From the NCBI GenBank assembly GCA_963699255.1, contig OY969425.1:1080001-1112000 (forward strand): a stretch of 32,000 bases of DNA, in the 5' to 3' direction. This stretch comes from an uncultured bacterium (GTDB lineage: Bacteria; Margulisbacteria; WOR-1; CAVSGV01). A program made the position numbers and the translations under genes. The notes under the pieces were generated by a model. It was not told the origin of the DNA. It did no database searches and saw only the letters and a list, made by a program, of their open reading frames with translations. This document shows, piece after piece, positions 11,658 to 27,821 of this stretch (the stretch's first letter is position 1; every line of letters starts with the position of its first letter).

Positions 11658-11718
11658 TAAAAGGCTCCCATAAAGTTAGTCTAACTGGAAAATGGTAGAA
11701 ATATTTTGCTCCACAGGC

Positions 11719-12015
11719 TTTCCAGTATAGCATTTTACCGCCTTTCCCTGTAAAGCGCGCTCACGTTAGGACTTCGTATAAAGCTCTCTGTCCCGAAAAA
11801 AGTCCTCATCCTTGCGGATTTTTTCGGGTATTTGTTCGCGCCCTCCTCCAGTCGCCCGACTAAAGTCGAGGCTCCTTCCGGCCCTCCGCTCCTTACGCTC
11901 ATTCACCATAATTAGATAATAGGTAGGGTTCATTCGCTCCTCTCGCTTCGGGTGACAGGGGCGGTAAAATGCTGTTCCTTCCTGTGTGTTTTCATTTCAC
12001 AGGGAGGTGGTTTTC
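11719..12015 (+). ncRNA. Conserved ~295-nt structured non-coding leader upstream of the DprA-like gene (copy 1). Could be a cis-RNA or a DNA element such as an origin
   Basis: It aligns with 25297..25591: ttccagtatagca..., gacttcgtataaagc, cctcatccttgcgga, ctcctccagtcgccc, gaggctccttccggccctccgct, ctcgcttcgggtgacagg. Single-base indels break any common reading frame. Two hairpins show compensatory changes between copies (11792..11828 and 11854..11872). Confidence 0.5.
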
Positions 12016-12551
12016 ATGTCTCGTTTAGCAGGTGTCATTGGTTCCCGTTCATTGCCCGTTTCTTTTGCCCCGCTTGTCTCCCACATTGTTTCCCTTCTCC
12101 TTTCCCGTGGCTACGGCATTGCCTCTGGCGGCGCTGTCGGCGCTGATTCATTTGCTCTTGCAGCGGTTATTCATCGGGGGGTGGCTTCACGCTGTGTCAT
12201 TTACTCCGCTTGGTCTTCTGCTTCGGGCTTTCCTTCCTCTGTTCAGCCTCAGGTTTCTCGTTTCCTTGCTTCTGGTGGTCAGGTTATATGGGGTTCCTGT
12301 CCGGTTGGTGCTTTGCGTCAGGAGGCGGTTTCTGCTCTTCTCGGCAGGAACAGGCGTCTTGTTTCTGCTTCCTCAGTCATTGTTGCCTTCCTACACACCT
12401 ACACAGCCAGTCTCGTGGCTCTCTTTACACGGTCCGTCAGGCTGTTGAGCAGGGTGTTCCGGTCATCGTGTTCCTTTGCGGCGGCGGTGCGTCTTTGCCC
12501 GCTGATCTTGCTTCCAGGTGTTTAGTGTTTACAGAAAAGGAGGTGGTTTAG
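12016..12551 (+). pseudogene. Minimal DprA-like (DNA_processg_A Rossmann core) gene, disrupted by an 8-bp tandem duplication
   Basis: RBS GGGAGGTGG precedes ATG 12016. MSRLAGVIGSRSLP...IASGGAVGADSFALAAV...LLGRNRRLVSASSVIVAFLH then shifts frame to SQSRGSLYTVRQAVEQGVPVIVFLC...EKEVV*. The duplication is cctacaca x2 at 12390..12405. Removing one copy restores AFLHSQSRG, colinear with AFIHGQSRG in the intact copy 25592..26116. Confidence 0.75.
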
Positions 12552-18731: not shown

Positions 18732-18737
18732 TTGCGC

Positions 18738-18830
18738 GTCGATAAGGGGAGCCCATGAATGTGGGGCTGAGAACTCCGAATTGATCGGAGGACCCGTTGA
18801 ACTTGATCAGGTTAAAACCTGCGAAAGGAG
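18738..18830 (+). promoter_or_regulatory. TPP (THI-box) riboswitch, probably acting on translation
   Basis: The sequence AGGGGAGCC...GGGGCTGAGA...ACCCGTTGAACTTGATCAGGTTAAAACCTGCGAAAGGAG matches the conserved THI-box cores (GGGG.GC, CUGAGA, ACCC..GAACcUGAUC.GG.UAA.aCC.GCG.AGG). The RBS AAGGAG lies in the 3' closing strand, 7 nt before ATG 18837. Confidence 0.85.
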
Positions 18831-18836
18831 AAAATA

Positions 18837-19877
18837 ATGAACACAGACAAACTGCCCGAACTCGGAAAGATCCATCCTGACTTCTTCGACCGCGTGATAT
18901 ATCCCCGCTTGGGGGCTGATGATAAGAACATAGTGATCGGGCCCAGGCACGGCGTTGATTACGGGGTATTAAAGGTCGGCGACAAATATCTGGCGATATC
19001 CACAGACCCGTTCTTCATAGTCCCTTCCTTCGGATTCTCAAAAGCCGCGTGGTTCGGATTACATATAATACTATGCGATGTCGCGGTATCGGGACTTAAA
19101 CCAAGATACCTGACGATCGACCTCAACCTGCCTCCCGAGATGACCGAAGTTCAGCTGGAAGAAATGTGGGAGACCGTACATTCGGAATCGAAAAAATACG
19201 GCATAAGCGTGATCACAGGCCACACCGCGCGCTATACCGGATGTAACTATCCCATGGTCGGCGGAGCGACCGCCATCGCTATCGGCGGTGAAAAAGACCT
19301 GAGAGGCCCTCAAAAGGTGAAAGCCGGGGACAAGATCATCATAACGAAAGGCCCCGCAATAGAGACGACCGGCCTGCTTGCAGTCCTGTTCCCTCAAAAA
19401 TTCATTGAGGCCGGCGGCAAAGCTTTCCAGAAAGAGGCCGCGGATATTTTTGCCCAGATGTCGGTGATGGATGACTGCGCCATCGCGCGTGAATTTCCCG
19501 GGACCCGCGTTATGCACGACGCGACGGAGTGCGGGATATGGGGCGGACTTTACGAGATGGCGAAGGCGGGGAAATATGGAATAAGGGTTGAGGAGGAATT
19601 GATACCTATTCAGCCCGTAATCAAGAAGACCGCTGAACTTTTCAAGTTCGATCCTTTCTGCTCGATAAGCGAAGGAACTCTCATTGCGATCGTTGACGGG
19701 AAGGAAGCCGATGAACTCGTTGCTGCGTTTAAGAGAAACGGGATATTAAGCGCGGTCGTCGGCGATGTTCTGGCAGGGAACAAGGGGATCAAGATAGTCA
19801 GCGAAGGAAAAGAAAGAACGCTCGAACACCCTAAGATCGATCCTTACTGGAAATTAGCCGCGGAGTTTTCCAAGTGA
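18837..19877 (+). CDS. AIR-synthase-related (PurM/HypE/ThiL superfamily) protein under TPP riboswitch control
   Basis: The 346-aa product has a PurM-like N-domain pattern (GVDYGVLKVGDKYLAISTDPFFI, LHIILCDVAVSGLKPRYL, SVITGHTARY) and a C-domain pattern (MHDATECGIWGGLYE). Confidence 0.7.
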   Translation: MNTDKLPELGKIHPDFFDRVIYPRLGADDKNIVIGPRHGVDYGVLKVGDKYLAISTDPFFIVPSFGFSKAAWFGLHIILCDVAVSGLKPRYLTIDLNLPPEMTEVQLEEMWETVHSESKKYGISVITGHTARYTGCNYPMVGGATAIAIGGEKDLRGPQKVKAGDKIIITKGPAIETTGLLAVLFPQKFIEAGGKAFQKEAADIFAQMSVMDDCAIAREFPGTRVMHDATECGIWGGLYEMAKAGKYGIRVEEELIPIQPVIKKTAELFKFDPFCSISEGTLIAIVDGKEADELVAAFKRNGILSAVVGDVLAGNKGIKIVSEGKERTLEHPKIDPYWKLAAEFSK

Positions 19878-25002: not shown

Positions 25003-25048
25003 GTTGGGTATAATCAGAGGTCTGGCTCGGCAGGAAACGGGTCGAGCC
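25003..25048. repeat. Inverted copy of the tRNA-Pro promoter and microhelix module
   Basis: gttgggTATAATcagaggtctGGCTCGGCAGGAAACGGGTCGAGCC is the reverse complement of 21122..21167, with a 3-nt difference (tct versus gat). Weaker identity extends to gtgaat (24995..25000). Confidence 0.9.
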
Positions 25049-25081
25049 ATTTTATCGTTCCCGCAAACCATTGCGGATTTT
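25021..25081 (+). ncRNA. Candidate ~60-nt transcript: microhelix fused at the discriminator position to a copy of the tRNA-Met trailer and terminator (a tRNA-gene mimic)
   Basis: The -10 TATAAT lies at 25009..25014. The microhelix GGCTCGG..TCGAGCC-A is at 25024..25049. The trailer follows, with terminator CCGCAA-acca-TTGCGG-ATTTT at 25061..25081. Confidence 0.3.
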
Positions 25082-25231
25082 GGGCGGCTTGGAGCGGCGC
25101 TTGCGTCGCGACAAGCCGCCTTATTCTTAGCTGAAAGCAAGTTCTCTTCCGCCGAAGGGTCGCAAAGCGGGCCGTAGGCGGCATTTTTAGCGTCAGCGCA
25201 GGAAGGATCTCCGCTCTCGGAATACAATAAC
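25047..25231. repeat. IR2-L: left copy of a 185-bp inverted repeat
   Basis: It is the reverse complement of 27568..27752 with 184/185 matches. The single mismatch is at 25206. Confidence 0.95.
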
Positions 25232-25296
25232 ATGCCTTCTATTGCCTCTATCGAATATTATGCCACTTTCCGATGTGCCATTTAATTTTTCCATCA

Positions 25297-25591
25297 TTTC
25301 CAGTATAGCATTTTTTTGCTTTTCTCCTGTAAAGGTCGCTCACGGAGGGACTTCGTATAAAGCACTCTATCCAGAAAAATCCTCATCCTTGCGGATATTT
25401 TCTGGTAAAAGTTCGCTCCCTCCTCCAGTCGCCCGCCTCCGGCGAGGCTCCTTCCGGCCCTCCGCTTCGTTACGCTCTCTCGCCCATATCTCCGCTTAAG
25501 GTAGGCTCGTTCGCTTCACTCGCTTCGGGTGACAGGCGCAAAAAAATGCTCCTCCTTCCTTGTATTCATATTTTTTACAGGAGGTGGTCAT
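25297..25591 (+). ncRNA. Conserved structured non-coding leader (copy 2)
   Basis: It is homologous to 11719..12015. The hairpins are at 25371..25405 (CCAGAAAA...TTTTCTGG) and 25431..25448 (GCCCGCC-tcc-GGCGAGGC). ORF 25242..25499 is not conserved in frame in copy 1. Confidence 0.5.
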
Positions 25592-26116
25592 ATGTCTCGT
25601 ATTGTTGGTATTGTTGGTTCCAGGTCTCTTCCCGCTTCTTTTTCCTCGCTCATTTCCTCGCTTGTGTCCGCGTTAGTTGCTCGTGGTTTCAGGGTGGCCT
25701 CAGGCGGCGCTGTAGGGGCTGATCAGTTTGCTCTTTCAGCCCTCGTTGAGCAGGGTTTGTCTGCATCGGGTGTTGTTTTTTCTGCCTGGGCTTCCGCTTC
25801 CGGTTTTCCTGTTCCGGTCCGGCCTCTTGTTTCCCGTTTTCTTGCTTCCGGTGGTCAGGTTGTTTGGGGTTCCGGTTCGTCGTCTCAGCCTCGTTCAGCG
25901 GTGGTTTCCGCGCTTCTCGGCAGGAACAGCCGTCTTGTTTCAGCCTGTTCGCTTGTCATTGCTTTCATTCACGGCCAGTCCCGGGGAACGCTTTACACCA
26001 TCCGTCAGGCTGTCAGGCGCGGTATTCCTGTTTATGTGTTCCTTTGCAGTGAGGCTTCATTGCCAGCTGATTTGGCTCCTCACTGTTTAGTTATAAATAA
26101 AAGGGAGGTGGTTTAG
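25592..26116 (+). CDS. Minimal DprA-like protein (DNA_processg_A Rossmann core only, 174 aa), with an extremely adenine-poor coding strand
   Basis: RBS AGGAGGTGG precedes ATG 25592. The product contains IVGIVGSRSLP...VASGGAVGADQFALSAL...ALLGRNSRLVSACSLVIAFIHGQSRGTLYTIRQAVRRGIPVYVF. This follows the DprA pattern (GSR ... SG.A.G.D ... RN.... S..V.V.E....SG.L.T...A...G..V...). The SAM and winged-helix domains of full-length DprA are absent. Confidence 0.65.
   Translation: MSRIVGIVGSRSLPASFSSLISSLVSALVARGFRVASGGAVGADQFALSALVEQGLSASGVVFSAWASASGFPVPVRPLVSRFLASGGQVVWGSGSSSQPRSAVVSALLGRNSRLVSACSLVIAFIHGQSRGTLYTIRQAVRRGIPVYVFLCSEASLPADLAPHCLVINKREVV

Positions 26117-26311: not shown

Positions 26312-27821
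<1,510 letters not shown>

What the first reader, a model, noticed from the sequence alone, without database searches (positions are those of the whole stretch)
11719..12015. Conserved ~295-nt non-coding region with covarying hairpins upstream of the DprA-like gene
The two copies (11719..12015 and 25297..25591) share long identical blocks, but single-base indels destroy any common frame. For example, tttttt-c-ggg against ttttt-c-tgg shifts the conserved block ctttatacgaagtcc into different frames on the reverse strand. Two stems show compensatory substitutions. The first is CCCGAAAAAA..TTTTTTCGGG against CCAGAAAA..TTTTCTGG (C->A paired with G->T), around an invariant loop cctcatccttgcgga. The second is GCC-CGAC-taaa-GTCG-A-GGC against GCC-CGCC-tcc-GGCG-A-GGC (A->C paired with T->G). 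Conservation of structure rather than of coding potential points to one of three things: a cis-regulatory RNA, a small RNA, or an orientation-specific DNA structure such as a single-strand origin. The last would fit an ssDNA-binding DprA-like partner, but that link is inference only.
Basis: partly seen in the sequence, partly recalled or inferred. Interest (0 to 1): 0.65.

Follow-up and report, generated by a model that had tools for sequence, protein, structure and literature searches.

The report
Fold-back promoter for single-stranded DNA
The conserved non-coding stretch is real and folds, but it looks less like a regulatory RNA than like a DNA hairpin that rebuilds a normal bacterial promoter only when the DNA is single-stranded, which would let a small mobile island switch on its first gene before it becomes double-stranded.

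Summary
Both copies (11719-12015, 25297-25591) are about 85% alike against about 70% for the gene behind them. They hit no Rfam family and carry no shared ORF.

I collected about 45 relatives from Saganbacteria/WOR-1 genomes and metagenomes. The 5' end pairs with the 3' end: 22 pairs, 92% paired, 13 pairs with double changes, 0 of 500 shuffles as good.

The 5' arm is the reverse complement of a sigma-70 promoter. On the minus strand it reads TTGACA, then 19-20 nt, then TGnTAnnnT in 34 of 34 sequences. The helix stops exactly between -12 and -11. A CA start-site signal sits at a fixed 10-11 nt beyond it on the gene side.

There is no forward promoter, and in many copies homology to other copies ends about 22 nt upstream of the helix. 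The first gene after the hairpin, whatever it encodes, has 8% adenine; the DNA after it has 30%.

Best reading (about 0.6): a promoter active only on the folded minus strand, like the Frpo/ssi promoters of conjugative plasmids. It shares no sequence with them, and no conjugation genes were found.

This scan reached the same reading earlier for this window and for other genomes. No RNA data could be checked.

The parts
11704..11723 (.). Conserved block (TTTGCTCCACAGGCTTTCC) at the left edge of the element, copy A. On the minus strand it lies just downstream of the -10 element and is unpaired.
   Evidence: In many copies homology between copies at different loci stops at TTTTGCTCC / TGCTCCCAGC. 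Positions -6 to -4 are conserved but pair only at chance level.
11724..11732 (-). Extended -10 element of copy A, read on the minus strand: TGC TATACT.
   Evidence: TGnTAnnnT is present at this aligned place in 34 of 34 relatives. T-12, A-11 and T-7 are invariant while positions 3-5 vary.
11728..11742 (.). P1, 5' arm (TAGCATTTTACCGCC), copy A. It pairs with 11960-11974.
   Evidence: 15 pairs, 93.6% paired, 9 pairs with changes on both sides. Predicted in the folds of both strands.
11743..11745 (.). Bulge of 3 nt in copy A (3-5 nt in relatives), always on the promoter-bearing arm.
   Evidence: Pairwise arm alignments. One relative (L028) carries an 18-nt hairpin inserted here.
11746..11754 (-). 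P2 5' arm. It holds the -35 element read on the minus strand (TTTACA here, TTGACA in 22 of 34 relatives). It pairs with 11953-11959.
   Evidence: helix 2 has 7 pairs, 87.8% paired, 4 with double changes.
11755..11952 (.).
   Evidence: The hairpins are replaced wholesale between relatives and are weak or absent in some subfamilies. The linker blocks are conserved and remain unexplained.
11953..11974 (.). 3' arms of P2 (11953-11959) and P1 (11960-11974), copy A. On the minus strand this is the template side of the rebuilt promoter.
   Evidence: This arm carries no -10 of its own: the bases after ATGCT are not conserved.
11984..11986 (+). Predicted transcription start of copy A, 10-12 nt after the end of P1 (GTG here).
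   Evidence: In relatives, CA sits at offsets 10-11 in 17 of 31 distinct sequences and a pyrimidine-purine step in 24 of 31. No other offset exceeds 5 (CA) or 10 (pyrimidine-purine). The distance to the ribosome-binding site varies.
12002..12018 (+). Ribosome-binding site GGGAGGTGG and ATG (12016) of the DprA-like gene, copy A.
12016..12551 (+). DprA-like gene of copy A. It is adenine-poor (9% A) and broken by an 8-nt duplication near 12395.
25302..25310 (-). Extended -10 element of copy B on the minus strand (TGC TATACT).
25306..25333 (.). Copy B: P1 5' arm (25306-25320), bulge (25321-25325), and P2 5' arm with the -35 (minus-strand TTTACA, 25328-25333).
   Evidence: Three consecutive P1 pairs differ from copy A on both sides: ACC/GGT in copy A, TTT/AAA in copy B.
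25530..25551 (.). Copy B: 3' arms of P2 (25530-25536) and P1 (25537-25551).
25562..25564 (+). Predicted transcription start of copy B.
25592..26116 (+). Intact DprA-like gene of copy B (174 aa, 10% A).
   Evidence: PF02481 at 50.8 bits, E 1.6e-13. Composition.

Best explanation
The region is a fold-back promoter that works only on single-stranded DNA.

When the minus strand (the template strand of the DprA-like gene) is single-stranded, its two ends pair. Window 11728-11753 pairs with 11953-11974 in copy A, and 25306-25332 with 25530-25551 in copy B. The resulting duplex carries a sigma-70 -35 box and the TG and T-12 of an extended -10 box. The rest of the -10 (A-11 to T-7) stays unpaired, so RNA polymerase meets a ready-made fork junction.

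The polymerase then reads the minus strand out of the base of the hairpin. It starts about 11 nt past the helix and makes a short-leadered mRNA for the first gene. In double-stranded DNA the same boxes point away from the gene and are 19-20 bp apart, so the gene should be silent.

Shown by sequence analysis: the helix and its covariation, the promoter boxes and their orientation, the exact end of the helix at -12/-11, the fixed CA, the lack of a forward promoter, and the adenine-poor first gene.

Inferred: that RNA polymerase uses this structure, that the element passes through a minus-strand single-stranded stage, and that the adenine-poor stretch serves transcription from a single strand. 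It leaves the template less folded and would give a weak rU:dA-rich RNA-DNA hybrid. The transcript might also prime complementary-strand synthesis, as reported for Frpo.
For: 1. Long-range helix. Of 22 pairs, 91.8% of cells are paired, 13 pairs have changes on both sides, 0 of 500 shuffles reach this, and slid controls give 45-64% paired.

2. Promoter boxes. The minus strand of the distal arm reads TTGACA (22/34; TTG in 32/34), then 19-20 nt, then TGnTAnnnT (34/34). This class does use TTGACA-17-TATAAT promoters.

3. Helix end. Position -12 is paired in 26/27 sequences and -11 in 8/27. Positions -10 to -4 pair at chance level, while A-11 and T-7 are invariant. The same holds by eye in a distant Endomicrobiales relative.

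4. Start signal. CA lies 10-11 nt after the helix in 17/31 distinct sequences, against at most 5 at any other offset. It is anchored to the helix, not to the ribosome-binding site.

5. No forward promoter. None was found in front of either copy. In many copies homology to other copies ends about 22 nt upstream of the helix.

6. Adenine-poor first gene. The first ORF after the hairpin has mean A of 0.084 against 0.30 in the next 450 nt. The small Cys-rich ORF is A-poor (0.10-0.17) when it comes first and A-rich (0.29-0.38) when second.

7. Paralogue control. DprA-like paralogues with an ordinary forward TTGACA-17-TATAAT promoter (L040, L052, L053/L055, L054) have no hairpin, and the three measured have 0.22-0.28 A.

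8. Pair types. The helices are almost purely Watson-Crick: 510 of 557 cells, 9 G-T and 7 A-C. About 2% of pairs in whole-region folds are G-T.

9. Published precedent. ssDNA promoters are large stem-loops that rebuild -35 and -10 boxes and are silent once double-stranded (PMC9849209, PMC11541004, PMC12672017).
Against:
- The spacer is canonical in neither form. It is 19-20 nt on the promoter arm and 15 nt on the opposite arm, with a 3-5 nt bulge.
- The source of minus-strand ssDNA is unknown. No relaxase (PF03432) or coupling protein (PF02534) was found in the genome, there is no Rep gene, and no copy was found on IMG/VR viral contigs.
- Two conserved pyrimidine-rich linkers inside the hairpin (11841-11854, 11872-11889) have no role in this model. 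On the plus strand they resemble anti-Shine-Dalgarno sequence, which suits an RNA leader.
- Only the first gene is adenine-poor, although the recombinase would also need expression.
- The extended -10 could fire leftward in double-stranded DNA regardless of -35 spacing.
- I could not locate the boxes of plasmid F Frpo2 with a simple scan. The geometric comparison therefore rests on the papers' descriptions, not on my own check.
Confidence: 0.6

Rival explanations
1. It is a plus-strand RNA leader (riboswitch-like or a translational or processing element). It would be transcribed by read-through, for instance from the recombinase gene across the joint of the excised circular element. The closing helix and hairpins would form in RNA, and the C-rich linkers would mask the strong ribosome-binding site.
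For: The region lies directly upstream of the ribosome-binding site and on the same strand as the gene. It has a multi-branch architecture with conserved unpaired CCUCC-type linkers that could pair with GGAGGUG. Covariation supports RNA and DNA pairing equally well.
Against: No Rfam match, even at E up to 10. No forward promoter, and in many copies homology to other copies ends about 22 nt upstream of the helix. G-U pairs are rare, about 2%. The interior hairpins are not conserved and are absent in some subfamilies. This model does not explain the perfect reverse-strand TGnTAnnnT and TTGACA, the helix ending at -12/-11, or the CA fixed relative to the helix. The minus strand folds better than the plus strand in 26 of 27 sequences.
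Confidence: 0.15
2. The boxes form an ordinary double-strand promoter that fires leftward, out of the element or into the inverted repeat to its left. The second arm would be a second copy of a protein-binding site or a product of local homogenisation, not part of a folded strand.
For: An extended -10 can work without a well-spaced -35. In copy B the promoter points into IR-L (25047-25258), an inverted 98% copy of the recombinase 3' end. Outward promoters at element ends are known in insertion sequences (my own knowledge).
Against: Where homology to other copies stops near the promoter, a leftward transcript would leave the element after about 15 nt and reach unrelated host DNA. -35 spacing of 19-20 is kept in 32 of 34 sequences, and TTGACA is kept in a copy where an inserted hairpin puts it 38 nt away. 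Two protein sites would not need a bulge on one side only, a mismatch zone exactly over the -10, or covariation in 13 of 22 positions with freely changing sequence. This model does not explain the adenine-poor first gene on the other side.
Confidence: 0.08
3. It is chiefly a single-strand origin. RNA polymerase would bind the folded strand only to make a short primer for complementary-strand synthesis (like ssoA of rolling-circle plasmids or the filamentous-phage minus-strand origin), and gene expression would be secondary.
For: The same promoter-mimic hairpin logic applies. Frpo was first described as both promoter and primer source (PMC9849209, and the Fraikin preprint 10.64898/2026.01.09.698686).
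Against: No Rep or phage replication gene lies in or near the elements. The predicted start is followed within 0-40 nt by a strong ribosome-binding site and an ORF in every copy. The composition of that ORF is tied to its position behind the hairpin, which argues for mRNA production.
Confidence: 0.1

Closest known systems
Frpo/ssi (class 1) and class 2 and 3 single-stranded-DNA promoters in the leading regions of IncF and IncI1 conjugative plasmids (Masai & Arai 1997 as cited; PMC9849209; PMC11541004; PMC12672017)
   Same: A stretch of about 150-330 nt upstream of an early gene folds, in the strand that serves as the gene's template, into a large stem-loop that rebuilds sigma-70 -35 and -10 boxes. 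It is expected to be silent once double-stranded. The downstream genes deal with incoming DNA.
   Different: No sequence similarity to F Frpo2 or to any PLSDB plasmid. The carrier is a small tRNA-targeting serine-recombinase island in uncultured Saganbacteria/WOR-1, not a conjugative plasmid, and no relaxase or coupling protein was found in the genome. The -10 lies at the open base of the hairpin as a fork junction with a TG extension. The interior is branched and variable. The first gene is stripped of adenine, a trait the papers I read do not describe for plasmid leading regions (one reports them as GC-rich, PMC13478746).
Minus-strand origin of filamentous phages (f1/M13) and ssoA-type single-strand origins of rolling-circle plasmids (my own knowledge of the field)
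   Same: Folded single-stranded DNA mimics a promoter and recruits host RNA polymerase in a strand-specific way.
   Different: Those make a short primer and sit in replicons with a Rep protein or phage genes. Here there is no such gene, and every copy is followed at once by a ribosome-binding site and an ORF.
Fork-junction promoter DNA used in vitro to study sigma-70 (duplex to -12, single non-template strand from -11; my own knowledge)
   Same: The natural helix ends exactly at -12/-11, with invariant A-11 and T-7 in the unpaired part.
   Different: That is a laboratory substrate. Here the junction would be formed by folding of one natural strand.

Membership tests
ssDNA promoters of conjugative plasmids (Frpo/ssi class 1; classes 2 and 3) | One strand folds into a large stable stem-loop. 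| tested here: met
   The minus strand of copy A has z = -5.2. The closing helix is supported by covariation. The minus strand is more stable than the plus strand in 26 of 27 sequences.
ssDNA promoters of conjugative plasmids (Frpo/ssi class 1; classes 2 and 3) | The stem rebuilds -35 and -10 boxes oriented so that the folded strand is the template of the downstream gene. | tested here: met
   TTGACA-N19/20-TGnTAnnnT lies on the distal arm of the minus strand. The helix ends at -12/-11. CA sits at the predicted +1. The spacer length is not canonical.
ssDNA promoters of conjugative plasmids (Frpo/ssi class 1; classes 2 and 3) | Sequence similarity to a described Frpo/ssi element. | tested here: not met
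   No blastn match in PLSDB plasmids. Only chance 8-9-mers are shared with the F Frpo2 region.
ssDNA promoters of conjugative plasmids (Frpo/ssi class 1; classes 2 and 3) | Lies in the leading region of a conjugative or mobilisable element, next to oriT, with genes templated by the transferred strand. | tested here: not met
   The elements hold only the hairpin, a DprA-like gene, a small Cys-rich ORF and a serine recombinase. No PF03432 relaxase or PF02534 coupling protein is in the genome. Only these two families were searched.
ssDNA promoters of conjugative plasmids (Frpo/ssi class 1; classes 2 and 3) | Transcription only from the single-stranded form, with a mapped start site. | not testable with these tools
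This needs in vitro transcription or 5' RACE.
ssoA-type or filamentous-phage single-strand origins | A rolling-circle Rep or phage replication genes in the same replicon. | tested here: not met
   Pfam scans of the neighbouring ORFs.
ssoA-type or filamentous-phage single-strand origins | Conserved RSB and CS-6 motifs. | not tested
   No model of these motifs was at hand.
Curated cis-regulatory RNAs and riboswitches (Rfam 15) | Match to a family covariance model. | tested here: not met
   Nothing at gathering score in the region. Only chance-level hits at E up to 10.
Curated cis-regulatory RNAs and riboswitches (Rfam 15) | A promoter upstream, so that the whole structure is transcribed with the gene. 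| tested here: inconclusive
   No sigma-70-type forward promoter was found, and in many copies homology to other copies ends about 22 nt upstream of the helix. Read-through from outside or across a circular joint cannot be excluded.
DprA / DNA_processg_A (PF02481), for the downstream gene | Pfam domain match above the gathering score. | tested here: met
   Copy B scores 50.8 bits against a cut-off of 29.6. The frameshifted copy A scores 29.2 bits, just below it. Only the Rossmann-like core is present (about 174 aa). The genome also has a canonical DprA in a 331-aa open frame.

The most novel reading that the evidence does not exclude
The hairpin lets a small, non-conjugative chromosomal island express its first gene, and perhaps prime its own second strand, directly from single-stranded DNA taken up by natural transformation. 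The host has ComEC and DprA but no detectable conjugation genes. The island would then be a mobile element adapted to transformation. Its adenine-poor first gene would be a built-in adaptation for transcription from a naked single strand, giving an unstructured template and a weak RNA-DNA hybrid.
Probability: 0.2. Interest if true: 0.9.

Novelty: new variant of a known kind. Interest (0 to 1): 0.72.

Why it matters
Promoters that work only on single-stranded DNA have been shown experimentally only on conjugative plasmids of enterobacteria. There they give incoming DNA a head start against host defences.

A family with the same logic but unrelated sequence would extend the mechanism in three ways. 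It sits on tiny recombinase islands, in an uncultured candidate phylum, and without conjugation genes. That would mean the mechanism is older and more widespread than plasmid conjugation in Proteobacteria, and that these islands pass through a single-stranded stage nobody has described.

The natural fork-junction design gives clear predictions that can be tested with E. coli RNA polymerase and synthetic DNA: the helix stops at -12, A-11 and T-7 are free, and CA sits at +1.

The adenine-poor first gene, tied to position and not to the protein, points to an unrecognised constraint on genes transcribed from a single strand. It could serve as a search signature for more such systems.

Tried and rejected
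- **Rfam.** Searched at gathering score and at E up to 10. Nothing real.
- **Phage and plasmid collections.** blastn found no match.
- **First protein-based locus search.** It used the frameshifted copy A protein and found nothing. An alignment of intact proteins worked.
- **Assigning the functional strand from wobble pairs.** 9 G-T against 7 A-C in the arms, and 34 against 41 in whole folds. Not informative.
- **Pairing between the C-rich linkers and the ribosome-binding site.** The site hardly varies, so there is no covariation to test.
- **Conserved small ORF.** None: indels and hairpin swaps break every frame.
- **ssDNA from replication gaps.** In this genome all three copies have the minus strand as lagging-strand template (origin near 1.43 Mb, terminus near 0.5 Mb). 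In the complete relative G012 both copies lie the other way. Rejected.
- **Checking box geometry on plasmid F Frpo2.** The T strand folds as a long hairpin, but a simple scan did not find its boxes. No direct comparison was made.
- **The same hairpin in front of other genes.** A pattern scan of 65 genomes hit only these loci, plus three where the DprA-like gene is missing. The reversed-pattern control gave zero hits.
- **Other adenine-poor genes in the genome.** The three DprA-like loci are the three most extreme 300-nt windows. The others looked unrelated.
- **Viral contigs.** 14 pattern hits, none with the matching second arm.

Full report
**What is there.** The window lies at 1,080,001-1,112,000 of a 1.77-Mb single-contig genome. 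Record titles of its relatives name them Saganbacteria / candidate division WOR-1, Margulisiibacteriota.

Blocks of the non-coding region are 82-88% identical, while the coding region behind it is 70-77% identical.

Each copy precedes a small DprA-like gene (PF02481). Copy B is intact (174 aa). Copy A is broken by an 8-nt duplication. Next come a roughly 60-aa Cys-rich ORF and a large serine recombinase whose 3' end abuts a tRNA gene: tRNA-Glu for copy A and tRNA-Met for copy B.

The genome has a third full copy at 882,087 and two truncated ones. Rfam gives nothing, and neither do the phage and plasmid collections.

**More relatives.** A DNA search in relatives and a protein search with the DprA-like gene across all 65 genomes of the class (27 positive) gave 43 distinct upstream regions, 34 of which carry the fold-back. 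A pattern scan of metagenomes added 11. None of 14 hits on viral contigs had the second arm.

Lengths range from about 140 to 260 nt. Interior hairpins are swapped wholesale between relatives, and no reading frame is shared.

**The structure.** The dominant feature, however, is a closing helix between the two ends of the region:
- P1, 15 bp: 11728-11742 with 11960-11974.
- P2, 7-8 bp: 11746-11753 with 11953-11959.
- A 3-5-nt bulge that always lies on the 5' arm.

On an alignment of the arms of 27 distinct sequences, 91.8% of cells are paired and 13 of 22 pairs show changes on both sides. None of 500 shuffles reaches the observed values. Sliding one arm by 1-3 columns drops pairing to 45-64%.

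The arms are almost purely Watson-Crick: 510 of 557 cells, with 9 G-T and 7 A-C. Whole-region folds use about 2% G-T on either strand, and the minus strand is the more stable one in 26 of 27 cases.

The interior is strongly structured in some subfamilies (z down to -8) and not at all in others. The universal core is therefore the pair of arms.

**The promoter hidden in the 5' arm.** Read on the minus strand, the 5' arm is TTGACA (22 of 34; TTG in 32), then 19-20 nt, then TGnTAnnnT (34 of 34). T-12, A-11, T-7 and the TG are invariant while hexamer positions 3-5 vary freely. This is the usual conservation pattern of an extended -10 element.

Bacteria of this class use that consensus. DprA-like paralogues (L040, L052-L055) carry forward TTGACA-17-TATAAT promoters, and so does the neighbouring gene at 24934-24906. 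The 3' arm has no -10 of its own. No forward sigma-70 promoter is found in front of either copy.

**Geometry.** On the folded minus strand, the arm next to the gene is the template and the far arm supplies the non-template boxes. RNA polymerase would therefore leave through the base of the hairpin and copy the minus strand into DprA-like mRNA. Three observations fit this closely.
- The helix stops exactly at the point where sigma-70 opens a promoter. Position -12 is paired in 26 of 27 sequences and -11 in 8 of 27. Positions -10 to -4 pair at chance level.
- A CA step, the usual start-site signal, lies 10-11 nt after the end of the helix in 17 of 31 distinct sequences, and a pyrimidine-purine step in 24 of 31. 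No other offset exceeds 5 (CA) or 10 (pyrimidine-purine). Its distance to the ribosome-binding site varies from 0 to about 40 nt, so it is anchored to the helix.
- A distant relative in an Endomicrobiales genome has a much simpler hairpin, yet shows the same helix end at -12/-11 and the same CA offset (read by eye).

**The gene behind it.** The first ORF after the hairpin has on average 8.4% adenine, against 30% in the next 450 nt and 26% upstream (window values). The three DprA-like loci are the three most adenine-poor 300-nt windows of the genome.

The trait goes with position, not with the protein. In three genomes the DprA-like gene is missing and the hairpin drives the Cys-rich ORF. That ORF then has 10-17% A, whereas as second gene it has 29-38%.

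The paralogues with ordinary forward promoters have no hairpin, and the three measured have 22-28% A. As single-stranded DNA, the adenine-poor stretch folds 18-26 kcal/mol more weakly than its G+C content predicts (z about +1.8 to +2.6).

**What argues against an RNA leader.** In many copies, homology between copies at different loci stops about 22 nt upstream of the helix, at TTTTGCTCC / TGCTCCCAGC. That leaves no room for an internal promoter. G-U pairs are nearly absent. The interior is not conserved as a fold.

Read-through transcription, for instance across the joint of an excised circle, cannot be excluded. The two conserved pyrimidine-rich linkers (11841-11854 and 11872-11889) resemble anti-Shine-Dalgarno sequence. 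They are the best point in favour of an RNA reading, and my preferred model does not explain them.

**What remains weak.**
- The box spacing is canonical in neither form: 19-20 nt on one arm and 15 nt on the other.
- I found no source for the single strand. There is no relaxase or coupling protein and no Rep gene. The genome does have ComEC and a canonical DprA, so uptake by transformation is conceivable, but that is only an inference.
- The idea that replication gaps expose the strand fails. The three copies here lie on the lagging-strand template, but both copies in a complete relative lie on the leading-strand template.
- In copy B the hairpin abuts a 212-nt inverted copy of the recombinase 3' end (25047-25258 against 27541-27752, 98%). 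A leftward double-strand promoter reading into it is therefore a live, if less explanatory, rival.

**Comparison with what is known.** Single-stranded-DNA promoters (Frpo/ssi class 1, plus classes 2 and 3) are described as large stem-loops that rebuild -35 and -10 boxes. They drive early genes from the transferred strand of IncF and IncI1 plasmids and are silent after second-strand synthesis. Their start sites have been mapped (PMC9849209, PMC11541004, PMC12672017, preprint 10.64898/2026.01.09.698686).

The present element works like these on every feature I could test in silico. It is not a member by sequence or by genetic context. A full-text search found no paper linking ssDNA promoters with serine-recombinase islands or DprA-like genes.

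**Earlier notes of this scan.** They reached the same reading for this window (e1-2551884) and for adenine-free DprA-like genes in other genomes (e1-4432232, e1-2564748, e1-1354703). The idea of a backwards promoter came to me from the first of these notes. All the tests reported here are my own.

**Verdict.** The best explanation is a fold-back promoter specific to single-stranded DNA (confidence about 0.6). It is a new variant of a known kind.

Noticed in passing
window 12390-12405: An 8-nt tandem duplication frameshifts the DprA-like gene of copy A. The downstream frame is still conserved up to 12551.
   Followed up: partly
window 25047-25258 and 27541-27752: A 212-nt inverted repeat, 98% complementary. 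The left arm abuts the hairpin. The right arm is the 3' end of the recombinase gene up to the tRNA-Met junction. As single-stranded DNA the module would form a panhandle.
   Followed up: partly
L066 (G050), L073 (G030), L075 (G015): The same hairpin sits directly upstream of the small Cys-rich ORF, with no DprA-like gene. In L066 and L073 the ORF is followed by a clear intrinsic terminator.
   Followed up: partly
L028 (G009) and L133 (metagenome): Natural insertions lie inside the promoter arm. L028 has an 18-nt hairpin in the bulge. L133 has a CTGCCCGCCT-type repeat between the -10 and P1. Either would wreck a double-strand promoter but could loop out of a folded strand.
   Followed up: no
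L096 (Endomicrobiales MAG) and L097: Distant DprA-like relatives (46-52% identity, 14-16% A) have a much shorter fold-back with TTGAC on both arms. L097 lacks the A at -11.
   Followed up: partly
L098-L102 (other Margulisiibacteriota): More distant DprA-like genes carry a forward CTTGAC followed by a hairpin that includes the ribosome-binding site. This is a different upstream design, and I did not analyse it.
   Followed up: no
window 11841-11854 and 11872-11889 (copy A); 25418-25431 and 25448-25465 (copy B): Two pyrimidine-rich linker blocks between the interior hairpins are conserved across families. No model explains them.
   Followed up: partly
genome C1:1068232-1068360 (L004) and 922109-922176 (L005): These are truncated remnants holding only the first 129 nt and 68 nt of the region. 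L005 also shares about 25 nt of the left flank of copy A (agttagtctaactggaaaatggta).
   Followed up: no
window 18735-18846: A TPP riboswitch above the Rfam gathering score (57.1 bits), upstream of the ORF at 18837-19877.
   Followed up: no
L231 and L238 (metagenome contigs): The hairpin and DprA-like gene occur without an adjacent serine recombinase. Neighbours are a radical-SAM protein, an AbiU2-like HEPN protein and a histidine kinase.
   Followed up: partly
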